Shown one piece after another: positions 3,373-14,393 of a stretch of 14,534 bases of DNA. Source of the DNA: Verrucomicrobiota bacterium (GTDB lineage: Bacteria > Verrucomicrobiota > Verrucomicrobiia > Limisphaerales > CANJSG01). Under the pieces are notes generated by a model. The model saw nothing but the letters and a program-made list of their open reading frames with translations, did no database searches and had not been told where the DNA came from. Both the position numbers and the translations under genes were made by a program. The stretch is from contig JBBQXJ010000101.1 of assembly GCA_038209745.1 (NCBI GenBank), forward strand, positions 1 to 14,534. The letters are read 5' to 3'. The first letter of the stretch is position 1. The number at the start of each line of letters is the position of its first letter.

Positions 3373-4605
3373 ATGAACCGACGCAGCTTCCTCAAATTGG
3401 CCGTCATCGAAACGATCTGCCTGCCTCCCGTCGCCCGTTTGCTTGCGGCCGATCTGCCAACGGCCAAGGGCGCTGCGAAGGGCGTTTCTTTCAAAGACAC
3501 GCCGACTGGCCGGGATTGGCTCGCCCGCTGGGAAAAGAGCATCCTCGGCGACGCCCGCAGCCGCTCTTGCGACAAGGAGATGGGCGAAGAGCTCGGCTGG
3601 TTGGTCAGCCCTTTCCTCAATGGTTTCTACTACGGCCACCTCGCCACCGGCGATCCGAAGTGGATCGATCTGCTGATCGACTGGACCGACTCGTGCATCC
3701 GTCGCGGCGTCAAAGAGCCCGATGGTTTCCTCGGTTGGCCCAAGGGGAGTCGCGGGGGCGGTGAGTCGCAGGAGTATTCGGCCGACAGCCTGTTGGGCGA
3801 AGCGATGATTCTTCGGCCCGTGGTGTTGATGGCAGCCCGAATCCTCGGCGATCCAGCCCTGGACGCGAAATACGGGGTCAAGGCCCGGAGCCATCTCGAC
3901 CTTGCCGAAAGGACCTTCGAAAAATGGGACTCCCGCGGTTGCTGGCGCGACGTGAAGGAGGGCGGCGTGTGGATCGTGCCCGATTTCGGCATTGATCTGA
4001 AAACCGGTTCCTGGTCCGCCGGCTACGCCGAGCGTAAGACCAACGGTTTCACCAATCCCGCCAACAAGGAGAACCACATCGCCCGCTGGATGCTGGCCCT
4101 GCACGACGCCACCAAGAAGCCCGTCTATCGCGACCGGGCCGAGCAATGGTTTCGGGTGATGCGCTCTCGTATCAGGACGCGCGAGGAGGGGAAATACAGC
4201 GTTTGGAACTATTGGGACCCGGCCGGTCCCTGGGACTACCAGCCCAACGGCGCACCGAAACACTGGGTCGGTGTCCATCCCAACGGCGGCTATTACCAGA
4301 TCGACGTCGAAGGCATCGTCGGCGCCTACCAGCACGGTCTCGTCTTCACCAAGGCCGACATCGACCGACTGATCGCCACCAACCGCGACTTCATGTGGAA
4401 CCAGAAGATCGACGGGGCGAAGTTTCAGCGCATCGACGGCGGCGAGGTCGACGCGCGGTGGAAGAATTCACCGGGCGCGCTGTGGCCCTCTCTCGTGCCG
4501 TATGATGAAACCCTGCGCGCCGTCTTCATCGCCAATCACGACCCGTCCGGCTGGGGAGGCATCGGCGGCACACCTTGGTTTCTCGCGGAAGGCGATCGCC
4601 GCTGA
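3373..4605 (+). CDS. Tat-exported hypothetical protein, probable alpha/alpha-toroid (six-hairpin glycosidase/epimerase-like) fold
   Basis: Twin-arginine signal MNRRSFLK...LLAA; host-like codon usage; Trp-rich; helix-turn motifs LATGDPKW and DATKKPVYRDRAE. The fold is an inference. Confidence 0.8.
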   Translation: MNRRSFLKLAVIETICLPPVARLLAADLPTAKGAAKGVSFKDTPTGRDWLARWEKSILGDARSRSCDKEMGEELGWLVSPFLNGFYYGHLATGDPKWIDLLIDWTDSCIRRGVKEPDGFLGWPKGSRGGGESQEYSADSLLGEAMILRPVVLMAARILGDPALDAKYGVKARSHLDLAERTFEKWDSRGCWRDVKEGGVWIVPDFGIDLKTGSWSAGYAERKTNGFTNPANKENHIARWMLALHDATKKPVYRDRAEQWFRVMRSRIRTREEGKYSVWNYWDPAGPWDYQPNGAPKHWVGVHPNGGYYQIDVEGIVGAYQHGLVFTKADIDRLIATNRDFMWNQKIDGAKFQRIDGGEVDARWKNSPGALWPSLVPYDETLRAVFIANHDPSGWGGIGGTPWFLAEGDRR

Positions 4606-7810: not shown

Positions 7811-8278
7811 TCATGGCCGCTTCTTCAAAATCACAGCATGACCGCTGTCAGGATCTCCAAGCGTGAAAATCAAACCGTAGGGCGGTTTGTCGCCAGTGAA
7901 ATTGGCTGGATGAATCCGATTGTCGGTAGTGCGCAAATAGACGCCCCACATAGGCTTGTTGCCCGGGTCGAGCGTGCCAAGCGAGCCCTTCTCCCACTTG
8001 CCCGACCCACTGAGCAACGAAGCGAAGAAATTTGTCCCGGGCGAACTCAACTGCCAAGGCGGGACATTGCTGGCGAGAAACGTTCCATCCGCGTGAAGCT
8101 CAACTAGAACTTCTGGCCGCGTGCTGCCAACTTCAGGCGGCAAATGAAAAGTATCGGCGACGTATGTCCCGACAACATCCTCGGCCATTGGCTCGGTCGT
8201 GGTGTAGAGGTTGGCGTGCGGGTCATACTGGCATCCGGCCAAAGCCAACGACGCGAGAATGCGAAAGGGGGTGCGCAT
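7811..8278 (-). CDS. Hypothetical lipoprotein
   Basis: MRTPFRILASLALAG-C lipobox; 155 aa. GC is lower than neighbours: 30/60 and 32/60 G+C in the lines starting 7861 and 8101, against 43/60 in the argD line starting 8641. Confidence 0.8.
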   Translation of the reverse strand: MRTPFRILASLALAGCQYDPHANLYTTTEPMAEDVVGTYVADTFHLPPEVGSTRPEVLVELHADGTFLASNVPPWQLSSPGTNFFASLLSGSGKWEKGSLGTLDPGNKPMWGVYLRTTDNRIHPANFTGDKPPYGLIFTLGDPDSGHAVILKKRP

Positions 8279-8295: not shown

Positions 8296-9648
8296 CTAAG
8301 CGACGGCCTTCACCACCCGCTCGATGATGGCGATGCCTTCTTGGGCTTGTGCACTAGTGAGGTTCAAGGCCGGCAACAGGCGCACGACCTGCGTGCCGCT
8401 GGGAATGGTCAGCAGGCCTTCTTCGTGGAGCCGGTCGATCATCTGGAGAGACGCGGCCCGGTCCGAGCCGGCGAAGCCCTTGATCTGGTCGGCGAGTCGC
8501 AGCTCGAAGCCGATCATCAGGCCCACGCCCCGGGAATTCATGACCACGCCGGGGTAGGTATCGGCCAGGCGCTGGAGTTCGTGCCGCAGCCAGTCGCCGA
8601 TCTTGCGGGCGTTGTCCGCCAGCTTTTCGCGTTCGATCACCTCGAAGATCTTCAGCGCGACGGCGCAGCCCAGCGGCGTGCCGCCGTAGGTGGTGCCGTG
8701 GGTGCCGGGGCCGAGCAGTTCGCCGAGCTTCACCCCGTGGTGCTGTTCCCGGATCCAGAAGGCGCCGATGGGGAAGCCGCCGCCGAGCGACTTGGCCATG
8801 GAGATGCCGTCGGGCAGGAACGTAGACCGGGCATCCTGCGCGGTCAGTTGAGCGTCCTCCGGAGACGGGCTGGAAGCCCGTCCTACGTTTTCAAGAATCC
8901 GCTGGAAGCTTTGGAAGCGGCCGGAGCGGAAATGGCCGCATTGCACGCCGTCGATCAGCAGCAGGAGCCTCTTCTCGTCGCAGAGTTGCCGCAGACCGAG
9001 GAGGTATTCCGACGTGGCGGGCGTGATGCCGCCTTCGCCCTGGATGCCTTCGATCAGGATGGCGGCCGTGGCCGGCGACACGGCGTCGCGCATGGCCTGG
9101 AGATCGTTGAACAGCACATGGCGGAAGCCCGGCACCATGGGCTCGAAGCCCTTCTTCACCTTCTCCTGACCGGTAGCGGAAACGCCGGCGAGCGTCCGGC
9201 CGTGGAAGGAATTCTGCGCGGTCAGGATCTCGAAGCGGCCTTCGTCGTGGCCGAACTTCCGGGCCAGCTTGTAGAGGCCTTCATTGGCCTCGGCGCCGGA
9301 GTTGCAGAAGAAGACGCGGCCGGGTGCGAGATGCTGGACGATCTTCTCCGCCAACCGGCCCTGCGGCTCGGTGTAGTAGAGATTGGAGACGTGCATCAGC
9401 CGCTTGGCCTGTTCGGCCAACGTAGCGGCGACTTCCGGATGGCAATGGCCGAGCGAGCAGACGGCGATGCCGCCGCCCAGATCGAGATACCGACGGCCGC
9501 GGATATCGTGGAGGTAGCTGCCCGCGCCGTGGGTAAAGGCGAGGTCGAAGCGCCCGTAGCTGGGCACGACGTAGCGGTTGAACAGCTCCTTCACCTCGGC
9601 GAACTGGTTCTGCACGATGGGCGGCGGAGGCGGCACGATGTCTTTCAC
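8296..9648 (-). CDS. argD: Acetylornithine/succinylornithine aminotransferase (class III PLP)
   Basis: Motifs YLDLGGGIAVCSLGHCHP, HVSNLY, FFCNSGAEANE, SFHGRT, EGIQGEGG, IDGVQCG, MAKSLGGGFPIG, HGTTYGG, RLLPAL. Carries a REP-derived 23-aa segment. Confidence 0.93.
   Translation of the reverse strand: MKDIVPPPPPIVQNQFAEVKELFNRYVVPSYGRFDLAFTHGAGSYLHDIRGRRYLDLGGGIAVCSLGHCHPEVAATLAEQAKRLMHVSNLYYTEPQGRLAEKIVQHLAPGRVFFCNSGAEANEGLYKLARKFGHDEGRFEILTAQNSFHGRTLAGVSATGQEKVKKGFEPMVPGFRHVLFNDLQAMRDAVSPATAAILIEGIQGEGGITPATSEYLLGLRQLCDEKRLLLLIDGVQCGHFRSGRFQSFQRILENVGRASSPSPEDAQLTAQDARSTFLPDGISMAKSLGGGFPIGAFWIREQHHGVKLGELLGPGTHGTTYGGTPLGCAVALKIFEVIEREKLADNARKIGDWLRHELQRLADTYPGVVMNSRGVGLMIGFELRLADQIKGFAGSDRAASLQMIDRLHEEGLLTIPSGTQVVRLLPALNLTSAQAQEGIAIIERVVKAVA
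8819..8889. repeat. Inverted GTAG-REP doublet (REPIN-like) inside argD
   Basis: Unit A on +: GTAGACCGGGCA-TCC-TGCGCGGTC (8822-8845). Unit B on -: GTAG-GACGGGCT-TCC-AGCCCGTC (8886-8864, perfect 8-bp stem). 18-nt spacer; outer inverted repeat AACGTAG/CTACGTT. Confidence 0.85.
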
Positions 9649-12726: not shown

Positions 12727-13134
12727 ATGAAGCGCATCGAAGTTTCAGCCGGCCTCGTGTTTCACGGCGGCCGGCTTCTCATTGCCCAGCGCAAGCCCGA
12801 CGCCCACCTCGGCGGATTCTGGGAATTTCCAGGCGGCAAACGCGAACCGGACGAGACCTTCGAGGCGTGCCTTGTCCGCGAACTCCGGGAGGAACTCGAC
12901 ATCGAAGTCTCCGTCGATGAACTCGTCGAAGAGATCTCACACGACTATCCGGACAAACAGGTGCTTCTGCGTTTCTTCCGCTGCCGCCTCGTCTCCGGCG
13001 AACCGCGTCCCATCGGTTGCCACGCCATCGCTTGGATCATCCGCGAAATGTTGACCGAATATCCCTTCCCCGCAGCCGACGCCCGGCTCATTGCCCGCCT
13101 CGCGACCGGCGAGATCCCGTTCGCCTCCGCGTAG
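12727..13134 (+). CDS. mutT: 8-oxo-dGTP diphosphatase MutT / NudG-type Nudix hydrolase
   Basis: HLGGFWEFPGGK; Nudix box GGKREPDETFEACLVRELREEL; FPAAD. ATG at 12727 is preferred. Confidence 0.88.
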   Translation: MKRIEVSAGLVFHGGRLLIAQRKPDAHLGGFWEFPGGKREPDETFEACLVRELREELDIEVSVDELVEEISHDYPDKQVLLRFFRCRLVSGEPRPIGCHAIAWIIREMLTEYPFPAADARLIARLATGEIPFASA

Positions 13135-13205
13135 CTGGCAACGCATGTCGGCCAGCCTCCGTTCACAACTGTTTCCGCAGACAACCGACCGAAAGCCGGC
13201 GCTAC
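13131..13205. repeat. Degenerate inverted GTAG-REP doublet between convergent genes
   Basis: On +: GTAGCTGGC...GCCAGC (13131-13156). On -: GTAGCGCCGGCTTTCGGTCGGT starting at 13205. The ends GTAGC/GCTAC are inverted. Confidence 0.55.
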
Positions 13206-13846
13206 TTCCGCCGACTCCAGTCGTCATAAAGCTCGCGGAAACATTCGCGAAGATTGCCGCAATGGCGGGTCCAAAGCGCCCGGCATTCCTCCGAGGCCGG
13301 ATCCGGAAACCCGTCGTTCGAAGTGGCGACCAGTTCCGCCACCAGTCCCATCAGAAGCTCGGGCGAAGTTCGCGTTTCTTGGAGCAGGGGCAGGCGTCCA
13401 GGCAAATGCGTGGTGACGACAAATCCGTCCGCGTGCCGCGTGCGGGACAGAGCCCAACGCCAGTCGAGGAACCCGAGCTGTTCCGCGCCGTCGAGGAACC
13501 AGACCACCTTGTCACCGTGATCGACGTCGGAACGAAACGCGTCGGATTGATTCTTGGCAAAAACGCCTTCCTCCGAGCCTGCGCGGCTGAAGTGGTCGGC
13601 CAGCGTCGCACCGCTGCGGCACCACTCCGGGTCGAGTCGAACCACGGGAGCCTTCCAGTCCAGTTCGCGCAGCCGGGCCGCGATTTCCACCACGAGCGTG
13701 GTCTTGCCGGAACCCTTTGGGCCGACAAGCGCGCCTCTCCCTCGAAACTCCTGCAGGCGGCGAAGCAGTTCGTCCACTGGAGGACCGTGGCGGAAACGCA
13801 GCGCCTCGAGGCGGGCGGCGTGGAAGGGATTCTCAGCGGCCGACAA
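13202..13846 (-). CDS. Small P-loop NTPase (AAA+-like), function unknown
   Basis: N-terminal NPF; Walker A GPKGSGKTT; Walker B WFLDGAEQL; VVTTH; C-terminal GNLRECFRELYD. The start overlaps the end of the upstream gene. Confidence 0.82.
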   Translation of the reverse strand: MSAAENPFHAARLEALRFRHGPPVDELLRRLQEFRGRGALVGPKGSGKTTLVVEIAARLRELDWKAPVVRLDPEWCRSGATLADHFSRAGSEEGVFAKNQSDAFRSDVDHGDKVVWFLDGAEQLGFLDWRWALSRTRHADGFVVTTHLPGRLPLLQETRTSPELLMGLVAELVATSNDGFPDPASEECRALWTRHCGNLRECFRELYDDWSRRK

Positions 13847-14393
13847 TGCCCCAGCCTCCCTTCGTCTCGCGACGTTCGTCCGGCACCTCCTCGATCCGGA
13901 ATGCTTGGCCGGTGGGCGAGATCACAAAGTCCAGCCGCAGCAAAGTTTCTTTAGGCGCTAGGACGACGAGGTCGAGCGCCCAGCGCACCGACACCAAACG
14001 GCCATCGAGCGAGAACGGCTCATAGGGCAGATCGAAGCGGAACGGGTTGACCGCCTGCGCTTCGGGCGATTCAAAGACCTCCGTCTGCACCACTCCGAGG
14101 TCCGAAGTCCCCTTCCCTTCGGTATACCAGAAGAGCCGCAGCTCGGCCTTCTTGGGCGCGGACTCCAAAGCCCAGGCCGCGACACCTTCGAGCGACTCTC
14201 CCGGCAGATAACTCGTCCGGCCGCCCTTCAGTCCGAGTCGCAGTCCATTGCCTTCGATCAATTCGGGCCCTCCTTGGTCAAGTGGCGGAGTGGTGTGGTC
14301 CCGCATGGCGGCGACCATCTGGACAGGAAATTCGTCGTCCACACCGGGCCCGCGGACGATCTCGCCCCGCACGCGGACGAGCCATTCGATCTT
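13833..14393 (-). pseudogene. 3' part of a gene interrupted by IS5: two beta-sandwich (arrestin/SpoOM-like) segments; the distal one may be translated independently from TTG 14261
   Basis: The frame is open from the IS junction: KIEWLVRVRGEI...DDEFPV - linker - LRLGLKGGRTSYLPGESLEG...LRLFWYTEGKGT...PFSLDGRLVSVRWAL. AAGGAG lies shortly upstream of TTG 14261. Confidence 0.7.

What the first reader, a model, noticed from the sequence alone, without database searches (positions are those of the whole stretch)
8819..8889. REP doublet inserted in frame in argD and translated as a 23-residue loop near the PLP lysine
Seen: two inverted GTAG-plus-hairpin units, both with TCC loops and bounded by AACGTAG/CTACGTT, lie inside argD. 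They encode NVGRASSPSPEDAQLTAQDARST (69 nt, 8889-8821). The GTAG is read as GTA-G, so the TAG stop is avoided. The segment sits between the DxxQ motif and the catalytic Lys, 10 residues before it. Known: GTAG REPs/REPINs are mobilised by RAYT tyrosine transposases and are normally extragenic; coding palindromic insertions are documented mainly for the Rickettsia palindromic elements. Inference: this lineage has a REP family that colonises permissive loops of housekeeping enzymes and creates new peptide sequence. The two units have diverged while each largely keeps its own stem, suggesting that both structure and frame are retained.
Basis: partly seen in the sequence, partly recalled or inferred. 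Interest (0 to 1): 0.82.

Follow-up and report, generated by a model that had tools for sequence, protein, structure and literature searches.

The report
REP repeat pair translated inside argD
A pair of small palindromic "REP" DNA repeats has landed in frame in the arginine-pathway gene argD of an uncultured verrucomicrobium and adds a floppy 23-residue loop; such insertions are already known in this phylum, but here one repeat family lives mostly inside genes and the same loop has been hit again and again in related bacteria.

Summary
argD (window 8296-9648, minus strand, 450 aa) carries a 65-nt GTAG...CTAC segment (8822-8886). It is made of two inverted GTAG-hairpin units and is read in frame as NVGRASSPSPEDAQLTAQDARST, ending 10 residues before the PLP lysine K286.

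The insert is young. All 24 normal-loop orthologues of 29 sampled, and the six closest database proteins (86-88% identical), have a 5-7-residue loop (E-G-VPGAEG-FLPD).

Both units belong to GTAG-REP families dispersed in this genome. 31 of 42 copies of these families lie in frame inside 20 Pfam-supported genes (MutS, UvrA, PolA, NadE, MetH and others), and all five stop-free frames are used. Four other REP families are extragenic (1 of 44 copies intragenic).

The same ArgD loop holds unrelated palindromic inserts in many relatives. Each one checked is a copy of a high-copy family of its own genome (23-211 copies; controls 0).

No Y1 transposase gene flanked by these REPs was found, so the mobilising enzyme is not identified.

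Intragenic GTAG REP dimers, most numerous in the verrucomicrobium Opitutus terrae, were published by Di Nocera et al. in 2013. This scan has also reported the pattern before on other DNA (hemL and others). Verdict: a new member of a known kind, of moderate interest.

The parts
8296..9648 (-). argD, acetylornithine aminotransferase gene (450 aa), intact. It is the only strong ArgD match in the genome.
   Evidence: Pfam Aminotran_3, 8.2e-96. NCBIfam NF002325, 403 bits against a cut-off of 372. One match in G000. The AF2 model matches solved ArgD structures with TM 0.86-0.90, target-normalised.
8822..8886 (-). REP doublet (REPIN-like), 65 nt from GTAG to CTAC. With one flanking base it makes 66 nt, or 22 codons.
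8864..8886 (-). Unit 1: GTAG + GACGGGCT-TCC-AGCCCGTC, a perfect 8-bp stem (D-type family).
   Evidence: pair I3; (21/21 identity to C1)
8844..8863 (-). Spacer between the two units. Its start, TCCGGAGG, is shared with other D-type copies (C63, C8).
8822..8843 (+). Unit 2: GTAG-A-CCGGGCA-TCC-TGCGCGG, a decayed B-type unit with one stem mismatch and a loop one base shorter than the consensus.
8821..8889 (-). The 23 codons N254-T276. They replace the 7-residue native loop (net +16 residues).
8791..8793 (-). Codon of the PLP-binding lysine K286.
8941..8952 (-). D233-x-V-Q236 motif.

Best explanation
The segment is a heterodimer of two GTAG-tagged REP units (REPIN-like). They come from repeat families that are dispersed in this verrucomicrobial genome.

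It entered argD recently, after the split from relatives that are 86-89% identical in protein. It landed in a clade-specific surface-type loop between the helix after DxVQ and the strand that carries the PLP lysine.

It survives for three reasons: the inserted DNA (65 + 1 nt) is a multiple of three; the GTAG tag is read GTA-G; and the loop tolerates extra, probably disordered, residues. The peptide has no role of its own. It is selfish or neutral DNA read through by the ribosome.

The native residues (V)PGAEx were lost with or after the insertion.

Shown: the anatomy, family membership, absence from relatives, the in-frame state, the many parallel cases in the genome, and recurrence at the same loop in relatives.

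Inferred: translation of the loop, neutrality, and the way the element moves (a Y1/RAYT-type or other single-strand mechanism; no enzyme identified).
For: (1) Family membership. Unit 1 is 21/21, 22/23 and 21/22 identical to other copies. The B consensus has 30 copies and the D group 12, at <=2 mismatches. Inverted doublets of the same build lie at C63, C39, C95 and C26.

(2) Presence and absence. 24 of 29 orthologues from related genomes have a 5-7-residue loop, including the closest (G002, 89%). In the protein database, 92 of 113 classifiable relatives have exactly 7 residues, including the six closest. An RNA-library contig about 92% identical carries the native loop LEGVPGAEA in place of the insert.

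(3) The DNA, not the peptide, is the repeated unit. The same unit is read in all five stop-free frames (VGRASLPG, RRPGIPARQ, AGLGCPAY, CRAGMAGLR, PGRDARPT) in different genes.

(4) 31 of 42 B/D units lie inside 20 long ORFs, and all 20 have Pfam domains.

(5) In-frame filter. All 4 strict intragenic doublets have GTAG-to-CTAC lengths equal to 2 mod 3 and flanks C...G. Counting looser pairs from the coordinates, by hand, the figure is 7 of 9.

(6) Loop character. pLDDT is below 50 for residues 258-271. T. maritima ArgD (2ORD) has 3 residues where this protein has 27. The rest of the phylum has the short turn.

(7) The gene is intact. The catalytic D, Q and K are invariant, and the NCBIfam cut-off is passed.
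Against: - No second full-length copy of this particular 65-nt doublet exists in the assembly.
- The overall palindrome is not stronger than shuffles.
- No Y1 transposase gene flanked by B/D units was found, so mobility is inferred only from presence and absence.
- A simple insertion does not explain why six native codons are missing. No lineage with an insert keeps PGAE beside it.
- Translation and enzyme activity of the inserted protein are untested. The only RNA-library contigs found came from relatives, not from this allele.
- Surface exposure was not computed; only model confidence was available.
Confidence: 0.85

Rival explanations
1. Targeted 'nest' or cassette replacement. The loop DNA, or an older REP remnant in it, is a specific landing site. 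Incoming REPINs replace the resident sequence, so the recurrence reflects site choice and not only survival of random hits in a permissive loop.
For: - In every inserted lineage examined, the element begins 1-4 nt after the Glu codon and ends 1-5 nt before the Phe codon, and the native PGAE is gone.
- This is the only sizeable indel hot spot in 48 correctly framed ArgD sequences. The one other gap block seen was a 5-residue lineage indel.
- Within one genus, the PolA loop holds a perfect B REPIN, a decayed copy, a collapsed copy and two other elements, again replacing the native VPRDAV. The NadE linker behaves likewise.
- An RNA-library contig 96.5% identical to the window departs at 8822 into GTGGGGCAGGCTTG, a different REP head. 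This rests on only 14 letters at depth 2.
- The f15 element head GTGCCCCCGG resembles the native GTG CCC GGN codons.
Against: - Flanks of REPINs elsewhere in the genome share no target motif beyond C...G.
- B/D copies sit in 20 unrelated genes.
- The 7-residue loop is conserved as protein (VPGAEG), as expected of a native loop rather than a relic.
- Selection for short loops followed by in-frame deletion could give the same picture.
- The PolA 'native' sequence is the universal Pol I sequence, a point that rests on recall.
Confidence: 0.2
2. The insert is kept because it is useful, either as a selected protein loop or as an RNA/DNA structure. Possible roles include mRNA stability, translational pausing before the active-site strand, or an antisense terminator.
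For: - The same loop is long in 17 of 113 database relatives.
- The insert is identical in contigs from two studies.
- On the antisense strand, the unit-1 hairpin is followed by CTACGTTTTC, which is terminator-like.
Against: - The inserts in different lineages share no peptide.
- The same DNA is read in five frames elsewhere.
- Most relatives, including the nearest, do without it.
- Decayed and collapsed copies exist (L029, L039, L045 and L054; PolA of G003).
- There is no Rfam match.
- The region held 2 terminator-like sites against 1.0 expected.
Confidence: 0.07
3. The palindrome arose in place, by local duplication-inversion or template switching of argD sequence, and is not a copy of a dispersed element.
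For: There is no identical full-length copy elsewhere. The spacer is unique apart from its first 8 nt.
Against: - Unit 1 is identical over 21 nt to a copy on another contig, and both units fit multi-copy families with the GTAG tag.
- Relatives' inserts at this loop are exact copies of families with 23-211 copies in their own genomes, against 0 for reversed-pattern controls.
Confidence: 0.03
4. The segment is not translated. Either argD is a pseudogene, or the hairpin is removed or bypassed at the RNA level.
For: There is no direct evidence of the protein. The RNA-library contigs found did not cover this allele.
Against: - The frame is open with no stop, and the length is a multiple of three.
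- The catalytic residues are intact.
- This is the only ArgD in the genome.
- If the units were removed from the RNA there would be no reason for intragenic doublets to be 2 mod 3 (4 of 4) or for the TAG frame to be avoided.
Confidence: 0.03

Closest known systems
Intragenic GTAG-tagged REPs and REP dimers (Di Nocera, De Gregorio & Rocco 2013, BMC Genomics 14:522, PMC3733652), especially Opitutus terrae families GTAG-17 to -20
   Same: - A GTAG tag beside a 6-9-bp stem-loop.
- Inverted dimers with 20-100-bp spacers that encode 20-30 residues.
- The same phylum.
- The same kinds of host genes (UvrA, HrpA, ABC ATPases, HI0933, helicases, DNA polymerase).
- GTAG sometimes supplies a gene's TAG stop (seen here at C7).

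I read the abstract, passages and Additional file 3 part 1.
   Different: - The unit sequences differ: O. terrae peptides are GTGVPPV, HGRDARAT and VAGVADPG, against VGRASLPG and PGRDARPT here.
- No aminotransferase appears in their list (0 hits).
- They state that most REPs are intergenic, whereas here 31 of 42 B/D copies are intragenic.
- They report same-site occupancy only for Xanthomonas recB. Here it is seen across many families of an order.
REPINs mobilised by RAYTs (Bertels & Rainey; Nunvar et al.) - recalled, apart from what Di Nocera et al. say of them
   Same: Two inverted REPs forming one unit, present as a family with sequence variants in one genome.
   Different: No RAYT flanked by these REPs was found. 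The location is mainly coding rather than extragenic.
Rickettsia palindromic elements (RPE; Ogata et al.) - as summarised in PMC3733652, otherwise recalled
   Same: Palindromic repeats inserted in frame in genes that stay functional, adding loop residues; selfish DNA that creates peptide sequence.
   Different: According to Di Nocera et al., RPEs carry a CGTC tag, not GTAG. The phylum, lifestyle and unit sequence all differ. No sequence comparison was made here.
Earlier reports of this scan (hemL in another Verrucomicrobiota genome, e1-5036851; PUFA synthase genes, e1-4867923)
   Same: In-frame REP-type palindromes in Verrucomicrobiota genes. The hemL loop was also said to be occupied by many different repeats in relatives. 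HemL is also a class-III aminotransferase.
   Different: The gene and genome differ. I did not check whether the hemL loop is the structural equivalent of this ArgD loop.

Membership tests
GTAG-tagged REP / REPIN | Short stem-loop (6-9 bp stem) with a terminal GTAG tag | tested here: met
   Unit 1 has a perfect 8-bp stem. Unit 2 has a 7-bp stem with one mismatch. Both have GTAG at the outer end.
GTAG-tagged REP / REPIN | Multi-copy family dispersed in the same genome | tested here: met
   At <=2 mismatches, the B consensus has 30 copies and the D group 12. BLAST of the element gave 21/21, 22/23 and 21/22 matches on other contigs.
GTAG-tagged REP / REPIN | Units paired in inverted orientation with a short spacer | tested here: met
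   Six strict GTAG...CTAC pairs of 65-170 nt were found, including this one. More pairs have degenerate tags.
GTAG-tagged REP / REPIN | A cognate Y1 (RAYT) transposase gene flanked by the same REPs (REPtron) | tested here: not met
   G000 has 4 Y1_Tnp matches, and none is flanked by B/D units. The C137 copy is flanked by other hairpins and the C12 copy by unrelated inverted repeats. Of the 26 matches in G116, G228, G035 and G102, 19 loci were examined and none is adjacent to its genome's argD-type REP. The assemblies are fragmented (G000 is 92% complete in 140 contigs), so absence is not proven.
GTAG-tagged REP / REPIN | Predominantly extragenic location | tested here: not met
   31 of 42 B/D units are inside coding ORFs. 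Families A, C, E and F behave classically, with 1 of 44 inside.
GTAG-tagged REP / REPIN | Mobility (new insertions) | tested here: inconclusive
   Only indirect evidence is available: presence and absence between close relatives at argD, PolA and NadE. No transposition assay is possible with these tools.
Rickettsia palindromic elements (RPE) | CGTC terminal tag and sequence relation to RPE families | tested here: not met
   The tag here is GTAG. The RPE tag is as stated in PMC3733652. RPE sequences themselves were not compared.
Rickettsia palindromic elements (RPE) | In-frame insertion in genes that remain functional | tested here: inconclusive
   The element is in frame, the gene is intact and the catalytic residues are kept. 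Function and translation were not tested.
MITE (IS-derived, TIR plus target-site duplication) | Direct target-site duplication flanking terminal inverted repeats | tested here: not met
   The flanks AAC/GTT are inverted, not direct, and no duplication was seen.
ArgD, acetylornithine aminotransferase (class-III PLP enzyme) | Family model above its curated cut-off, with PLP lysine and D-x-x-Q present | tested here: met
   NF002325 scored 403.4 against 372. TIGR00707 scored 401.6, just below its cut-off of 410. D233, Q236 and K286 are invariant. The fold matches solved ArgD structures.
ArgD, acetylornithine aminotransferase (class-III PLP enzyme) | Enzyme activity with the insert | not testable with these tools
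   Needs expression or complementation.

The most novel reading that the evidence does not exclude
Some REPIN families of Verrucomicrobiota (here B/D: 31 of 42 copies intragenic) may be adapted to live inside coding DNA. On this reading, particular protein loops and linkers (ArgD, PolA, NadE, perhaps HemL and HI0933) act as 'nests'. Successive, unrelated REPINs land at the same junctions and replace both the native residues and each other. This would imply site-directed insertion coupled to target deletion, and a steady source of loop diversity in essential enzymes.
Probability: 0.2. Interest if true: 0.65.

Novelty: new member of a known kind. Interest (0 to 1): 0.36.

Why it matters
As a single case it is ordinary. 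In-frame GTAG REP dimers in a verrucomicrobium have been in print since 2013, and this scan has met them repeatedly.

Three things go a little further:
- One genome holds REP families with opposite habits: B/D mostly inside genes, and A, C, E and F outside.
- One short loop, 10 residues from an active-site lysine, has been refilled by unrelated repeat families in many lineages. Fresh, decayed and collapsed stages are all visible.
- The native residues are always displaced.

If site choice rather than mere tolerance explains this, these loops would be a natural system for studying how REPs pick targets, which is still unknown. They would also show how selfish DNA creates and erases protein segments in essential enzymes.

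On the practical side, annotators and structure predictors should expect such low-confidence loops in Verrucomicrobiota proteins.

Tried and rejected
- **Generic motif scan.** A 'GTAG + N0-2 + hairpin' scan gave 275 hits against 438 in the reversed genome, so it is useless as evidence. Only the sequence families count.
- **Whole-insert palindrome statistics.** These were not significant for G000.
- **A chance match.** C54:3431-3446, a 16/16 match to unit 2, is coding sequence of an HI0933-like protein and not a REP.
- **RAYT hunt.** G000 and four relatives were searched. No Y1 gene was found next to the relevant REPs.
- **Rfam.** No match in 8600-9100 at E <= 1.
- **Sense-strand terminator or promoter.** None was found. 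There is one antisense terminator-like site.
- **Suspected gene disruption by an in-frame TAG at C7.** The prolyl oligopeptidase gene is complete, and the REP simply supplies its stop codon.
- **RNA evidence.** The RNA runs X15 and X16 held only small shares, and their contigs come from relatives (about 96.5% and 92% identical). They do not show expression of this allele. Parts without cover say nothing.
- **Parsing problems.** L043 could not be parsed. L042 and L045 were read in the wrong frame, so their extra gap blocks there are artefacts. Their loops were read correctly.
- **Not run.** Complex prediction was not used.
Full report
**The observation**

The window's ORF at 8296-9648 (minus strand, 450 aa) is a class-III aminotransferase (Pfam Aminotran_3, 8.2e-96). 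It passes NCBI's acetylornithine transaminase model NF002325 (403 bits against a cut-off of 372). It is the only strong ArgD match in its genome.

On the coding strand the stretch reads GAA AAC GTAG-GACGGGCT-TCC-AGCCCGTC-[22-nt spacer]-GCGCA-GGA-TGCCCGG-T-CTAC GTT. Unit 1 has a perfect 8-bp stem. Unit 2 has a 7-bp stem with one mismatch. The 69 nt at 8889-8821 encode NVGRASSPSPEDAQLTAQDARST (residues 254-276), with GTAG read as GTA-G. D233, Q236 and K286 flank the segment and are invariant in 27 orthologues.

**Is it more than chance?**

The palindrome alone is not convincing. The fold z-score is -1.9, with 9 of 200 shuffles as good. My inverted-repeat score was 8, against a maximum of 10 in 30 shuffles. 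A generic GTAG-plus-hairpin scan found fewer hits (275) than in the reversed genome (438).

What is convincing is family membership. Unit 1 is 21/21 identical to a copy on contig C1, 22/23 to one on C27 and 21/22 to one on C23. Unit 2 is three changes away from GTAGGCCGGGCATCCCTGCCCGGC, a consensus with 30 copies at <=2 mismatches. The genome also holds inverted doublets of the same build (C63, C39, C95, C26). The first bases of the spacer (TCCGGAGG) recur beside other D-type units.

DNA contigs from two runs of different studies bridge the insert without any difference inside 8819-8889. It is therefore not an assembly artefact, although one of the runs may be the window's own source.

**It is an insertion, and a young one**

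39 of 41 related genomes have a match, and I read 29 orthologues. Of these, 24 have a 5-7-residue loop (typically E-G-VPGAEG-FLPD), including the closest (G002, 89% identity).

Among the 119 best relatives in the protein database, 113 could be classified. 92 have exactly 7 residues, 4 have 6-8 and 17 have 11-32. The six closest (86-88% identical) all have 7. An RNA-library contig from a relative about 92% identical carries 27 nt encoding LEGVPGAEA where the window has 75 nt.

Outside the order, Verrucomicrobiota ArgD has the ordinary short turn (FAWQSFGVEPD), with a D-to-K spacing of 26 against 34 in the order. T. maritima ArgD (2ORD) has 3 residues where this protein has 27. The landing loop is thus already a clade-specific expansion.

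The AF2 model (mean pLDDT 75) keeps the ArgD fold, with TM 0.86-0.90 to solved ArgD structures. It gives pLDDT below 50 for residues 258-271.

**The genome-wide picture**

At <=2 mismatches, 24 of 30 B units and 7 of 12 D-type units lie inside long ORFs with coding composition. For families A, C, E and F the figure is 1 of 44.

The 31 units lie in 20 genes, all with Pfam domains. They are MutS, UvrA, PolA, HrpA, SNF2 (four units), NadE, MetH, two ABC exporters, FtsX, a FolC-like ligase, a second aminotransferase and others. HrpB carries a slightly more divergent unit.

The same DNA unit is read in all five stop-free frames, so the DNA, not a peptide, is what repeats. The B copies outside genes sit at gene 3' ends. 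At C7 the GTAG supplies the TAG stop of a complete prolyl oligopeptidase gene.

All four strict intragenic doublets measure 2 mod 3 from GTAG to CTAC, with flanks C...G. Adding looser pairs from the coordinates, by hand, gives 7 of 9. This fits in-frame survival of insertions of L+1 nt, which is 66 nt in argD.

**Recurrence at the same loop**

The order-wide search found ArgD in 379 of 401 genomes. This tally includes the unpublished genome G310, and no other claim rests on it.

From that search I fetched 20 genes: 12 chosen because they were long and 8 of ordinary length.
- Of the 12 long genes, 11 could be read, and all have loops of 15-35 residues.
- Of the 8 ordinary genes, 6 have 7 residues, one has 9 and one has 14.

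Across the 49 parsed sequences, 19 have loops longer than 8 residues. Ten of those have an inverted repeat stronger than any of 30 shuffles, with perfect arms of up to 24-27 nt (G030, G116, G102, G228, G262). The 30 short loops score 1-5.

The inserts checked are copies of high-copy families of their own genomes: 100 copies in G116, 32 in G035, 23 in G196, 76 in G102, 211 in G228 and 60 in G155. Reversed-pattern controls gave 0, and the f15 family has 0 copies in G000. These are therefore independent events by different families.

In each case the element starts 1-4 nt after the Glu codon and ends 1-5 nt before the Phe codon, and the native PGAE is gone. This loop is the only sizeable indel hot spot in ArgD.

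Two other genes of G000 behave the same way within the genus.
- The PolA loop before the SADYSQIELR motif is native (VPRDAV) in G002. It holds a perfect B REPIN in G004, a decayed copy in G000, a collapsed 8-residue remnant in G003, and other elements in G005, G006 and G001.
- The NadE interdomain linker shows a comparable series.

**Mechanism**

The best-supported reading is a selfish REP doublet that is tolerated and read through. Its survival is filtered by frame, by absence of stops and by loop permissiveness.

The enzyme that moves it is not identified. The genome has 4 Y1_Tnp matches. Two are small IS200/RAYT-like genes, and one of those passes NF033573. They are flanked by other hairpins or by unrelated inverted repeats. 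Of the 26 matches in four relatives, 19 loci were examined, and none adjoins the REP family found in that genome's argD.

The constant loss of the native residues, and the reuse of the same junctions, are not explained by simple insertion plus filtering. I keep targeted replacement as a rival at about 0.2.

An adaptive role is unlikely. The lineages share no peptide, the nearest relatives lack the insert, and decay stages are visible. There is no Rfam match. The only terminator-like feature is on the antisense strand.

**Comparison with what is known**

Di Nocera, De Gregorio and Rocco (2013, PMC3733652) describe GTAG-tagged REPs and their dimers inside genes. I read the abstract, passages and Additional file 3 part 1. 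They report the highest number in Opitutus terrae (Verrucomicrobia), about 70 rows. Their dimers encode 20-30 residues, in UvrA, HrpA, ABC ATPases, an HI0933 protein, helicases and DnaE2. They also note GTAG supplying stop codons, and one case of same-site occupancy (Xanthomonas recB).

No aminotransferase is in their list. They state that most REPs are intergenic. Two further literature searches (listings only) turned up no paper on REP families that are mainly intragenic, or on recurrent refilling of one loop across an order. That is the limit of my claim that this is not in print.

This scan has reported the same phenomenon before on other DNA, including a hemL loop in another Verrucomicrobiota genome said to be occupied by many different repeats. 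I used these reports as leads only.

**Verdict**

The kind of event is known, so this is a new member of a known kind. Two features add modest interest: the mainly intragenic habit of the B/D family, and the turnover at fixed loops.

Noticed in passing
G000:C48:20883-23873 (L095/L114) and relatives L115-L126: The DNA polymerase I loop just before the SADYSQIELR motif shows a full REP life cycle within one genus. It is native VPRDAV in G002, a perfect B-type REPIN in G004, a decayed copy in G000, a collapsed 8-residue remnant (VGRDARPT) in G003, and other elements in G005, G006 and G001.
   Followed up: partly
G000:C51:28336-30159 (L064/L100) and relatives L101-L113: The NadE interdomain linker carries a B REPIN in G000, a larger REPIN in G004 and G006, a single GTGG-tagged unit in G002, and a CATCCGG tandem repeat in G001, G003 and G005.
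   Followed up: partly
G000:C7:70944-71042 (L072:945-1043): An extragenic B-type REPIN lies between a prolyl oligopeptidase gene and a small phosphatase-like ORF. The GTAG of one unit supplies the oligopeptidase's TAG stop codon.
   Followed up: yes
G000:C137:850-2100 (L001): An IS200/RAYT-like Y1 transposase frame has no ATG, GTG or TTG start before its domain. It sits in an array of three direct copies of a two-hairpin module (GGTTCGACCCTTTCAGGGTCGTG ... CCGCAGGTTGCACCTGCGGCTAGT), with two more inverted copies downstream. A family-E GTAG unit lies about 190 nt after the gene.
   Followed up: partly
window 8864-8892, + strand: Antisense to argD, the unit-1 hairpin followed by CTACGTTTTC scores as an intrinsic-terminator-like site. 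The region had 2 such sites against 1.0 expected.
   Followed up: no
window 8822 (run X15, RNA-library contig): A contig 96.5% identical to argD over 8592-8822 leaves the window sequence exactly at the insert's edge. It continues GTGGGGCAGGCTTG, a different REP head. This rests on only 14 letters at depth 2.
   Followed up: no
L007, L035, L051 (ArgD loop of G008, G118, G250); proteins P0027, P0077, P0082: Some lineages fill the same ArgD loop with a short tandem CCGAACTC-type repeat (peptides ...EPRTPNSKP...) instead of a palindrome. A similar run occurs in the spacer of the REPIN at G000:C39:21665-21777.
   Followed up: no
G000:C54:2600-3967 (L065): The HI0933-like flavoprotein carries a B unit about 159 codons into the frame. 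Di Nocera's table lists a REP at residues 162-168 of the O. terrae HI0933 protein. This may be the same loop hit in another order.
   Followed up: no
G000:C27:6898-8352 (L062): A second class-III aminotransferase of the genome also carries a B-type unit (RRPGIPVRR...), but at a different loop, upstream of the ...AILVEPI... strand.
   Followed up: no
window 3373-4605 (+), 7811-8278 (-), 13091-13954 (+): Three long ORFs of the window have no Pfam match at 1e-5. argD stands alone, with no other arginine-pathway gene beside it.
   Followed up: no
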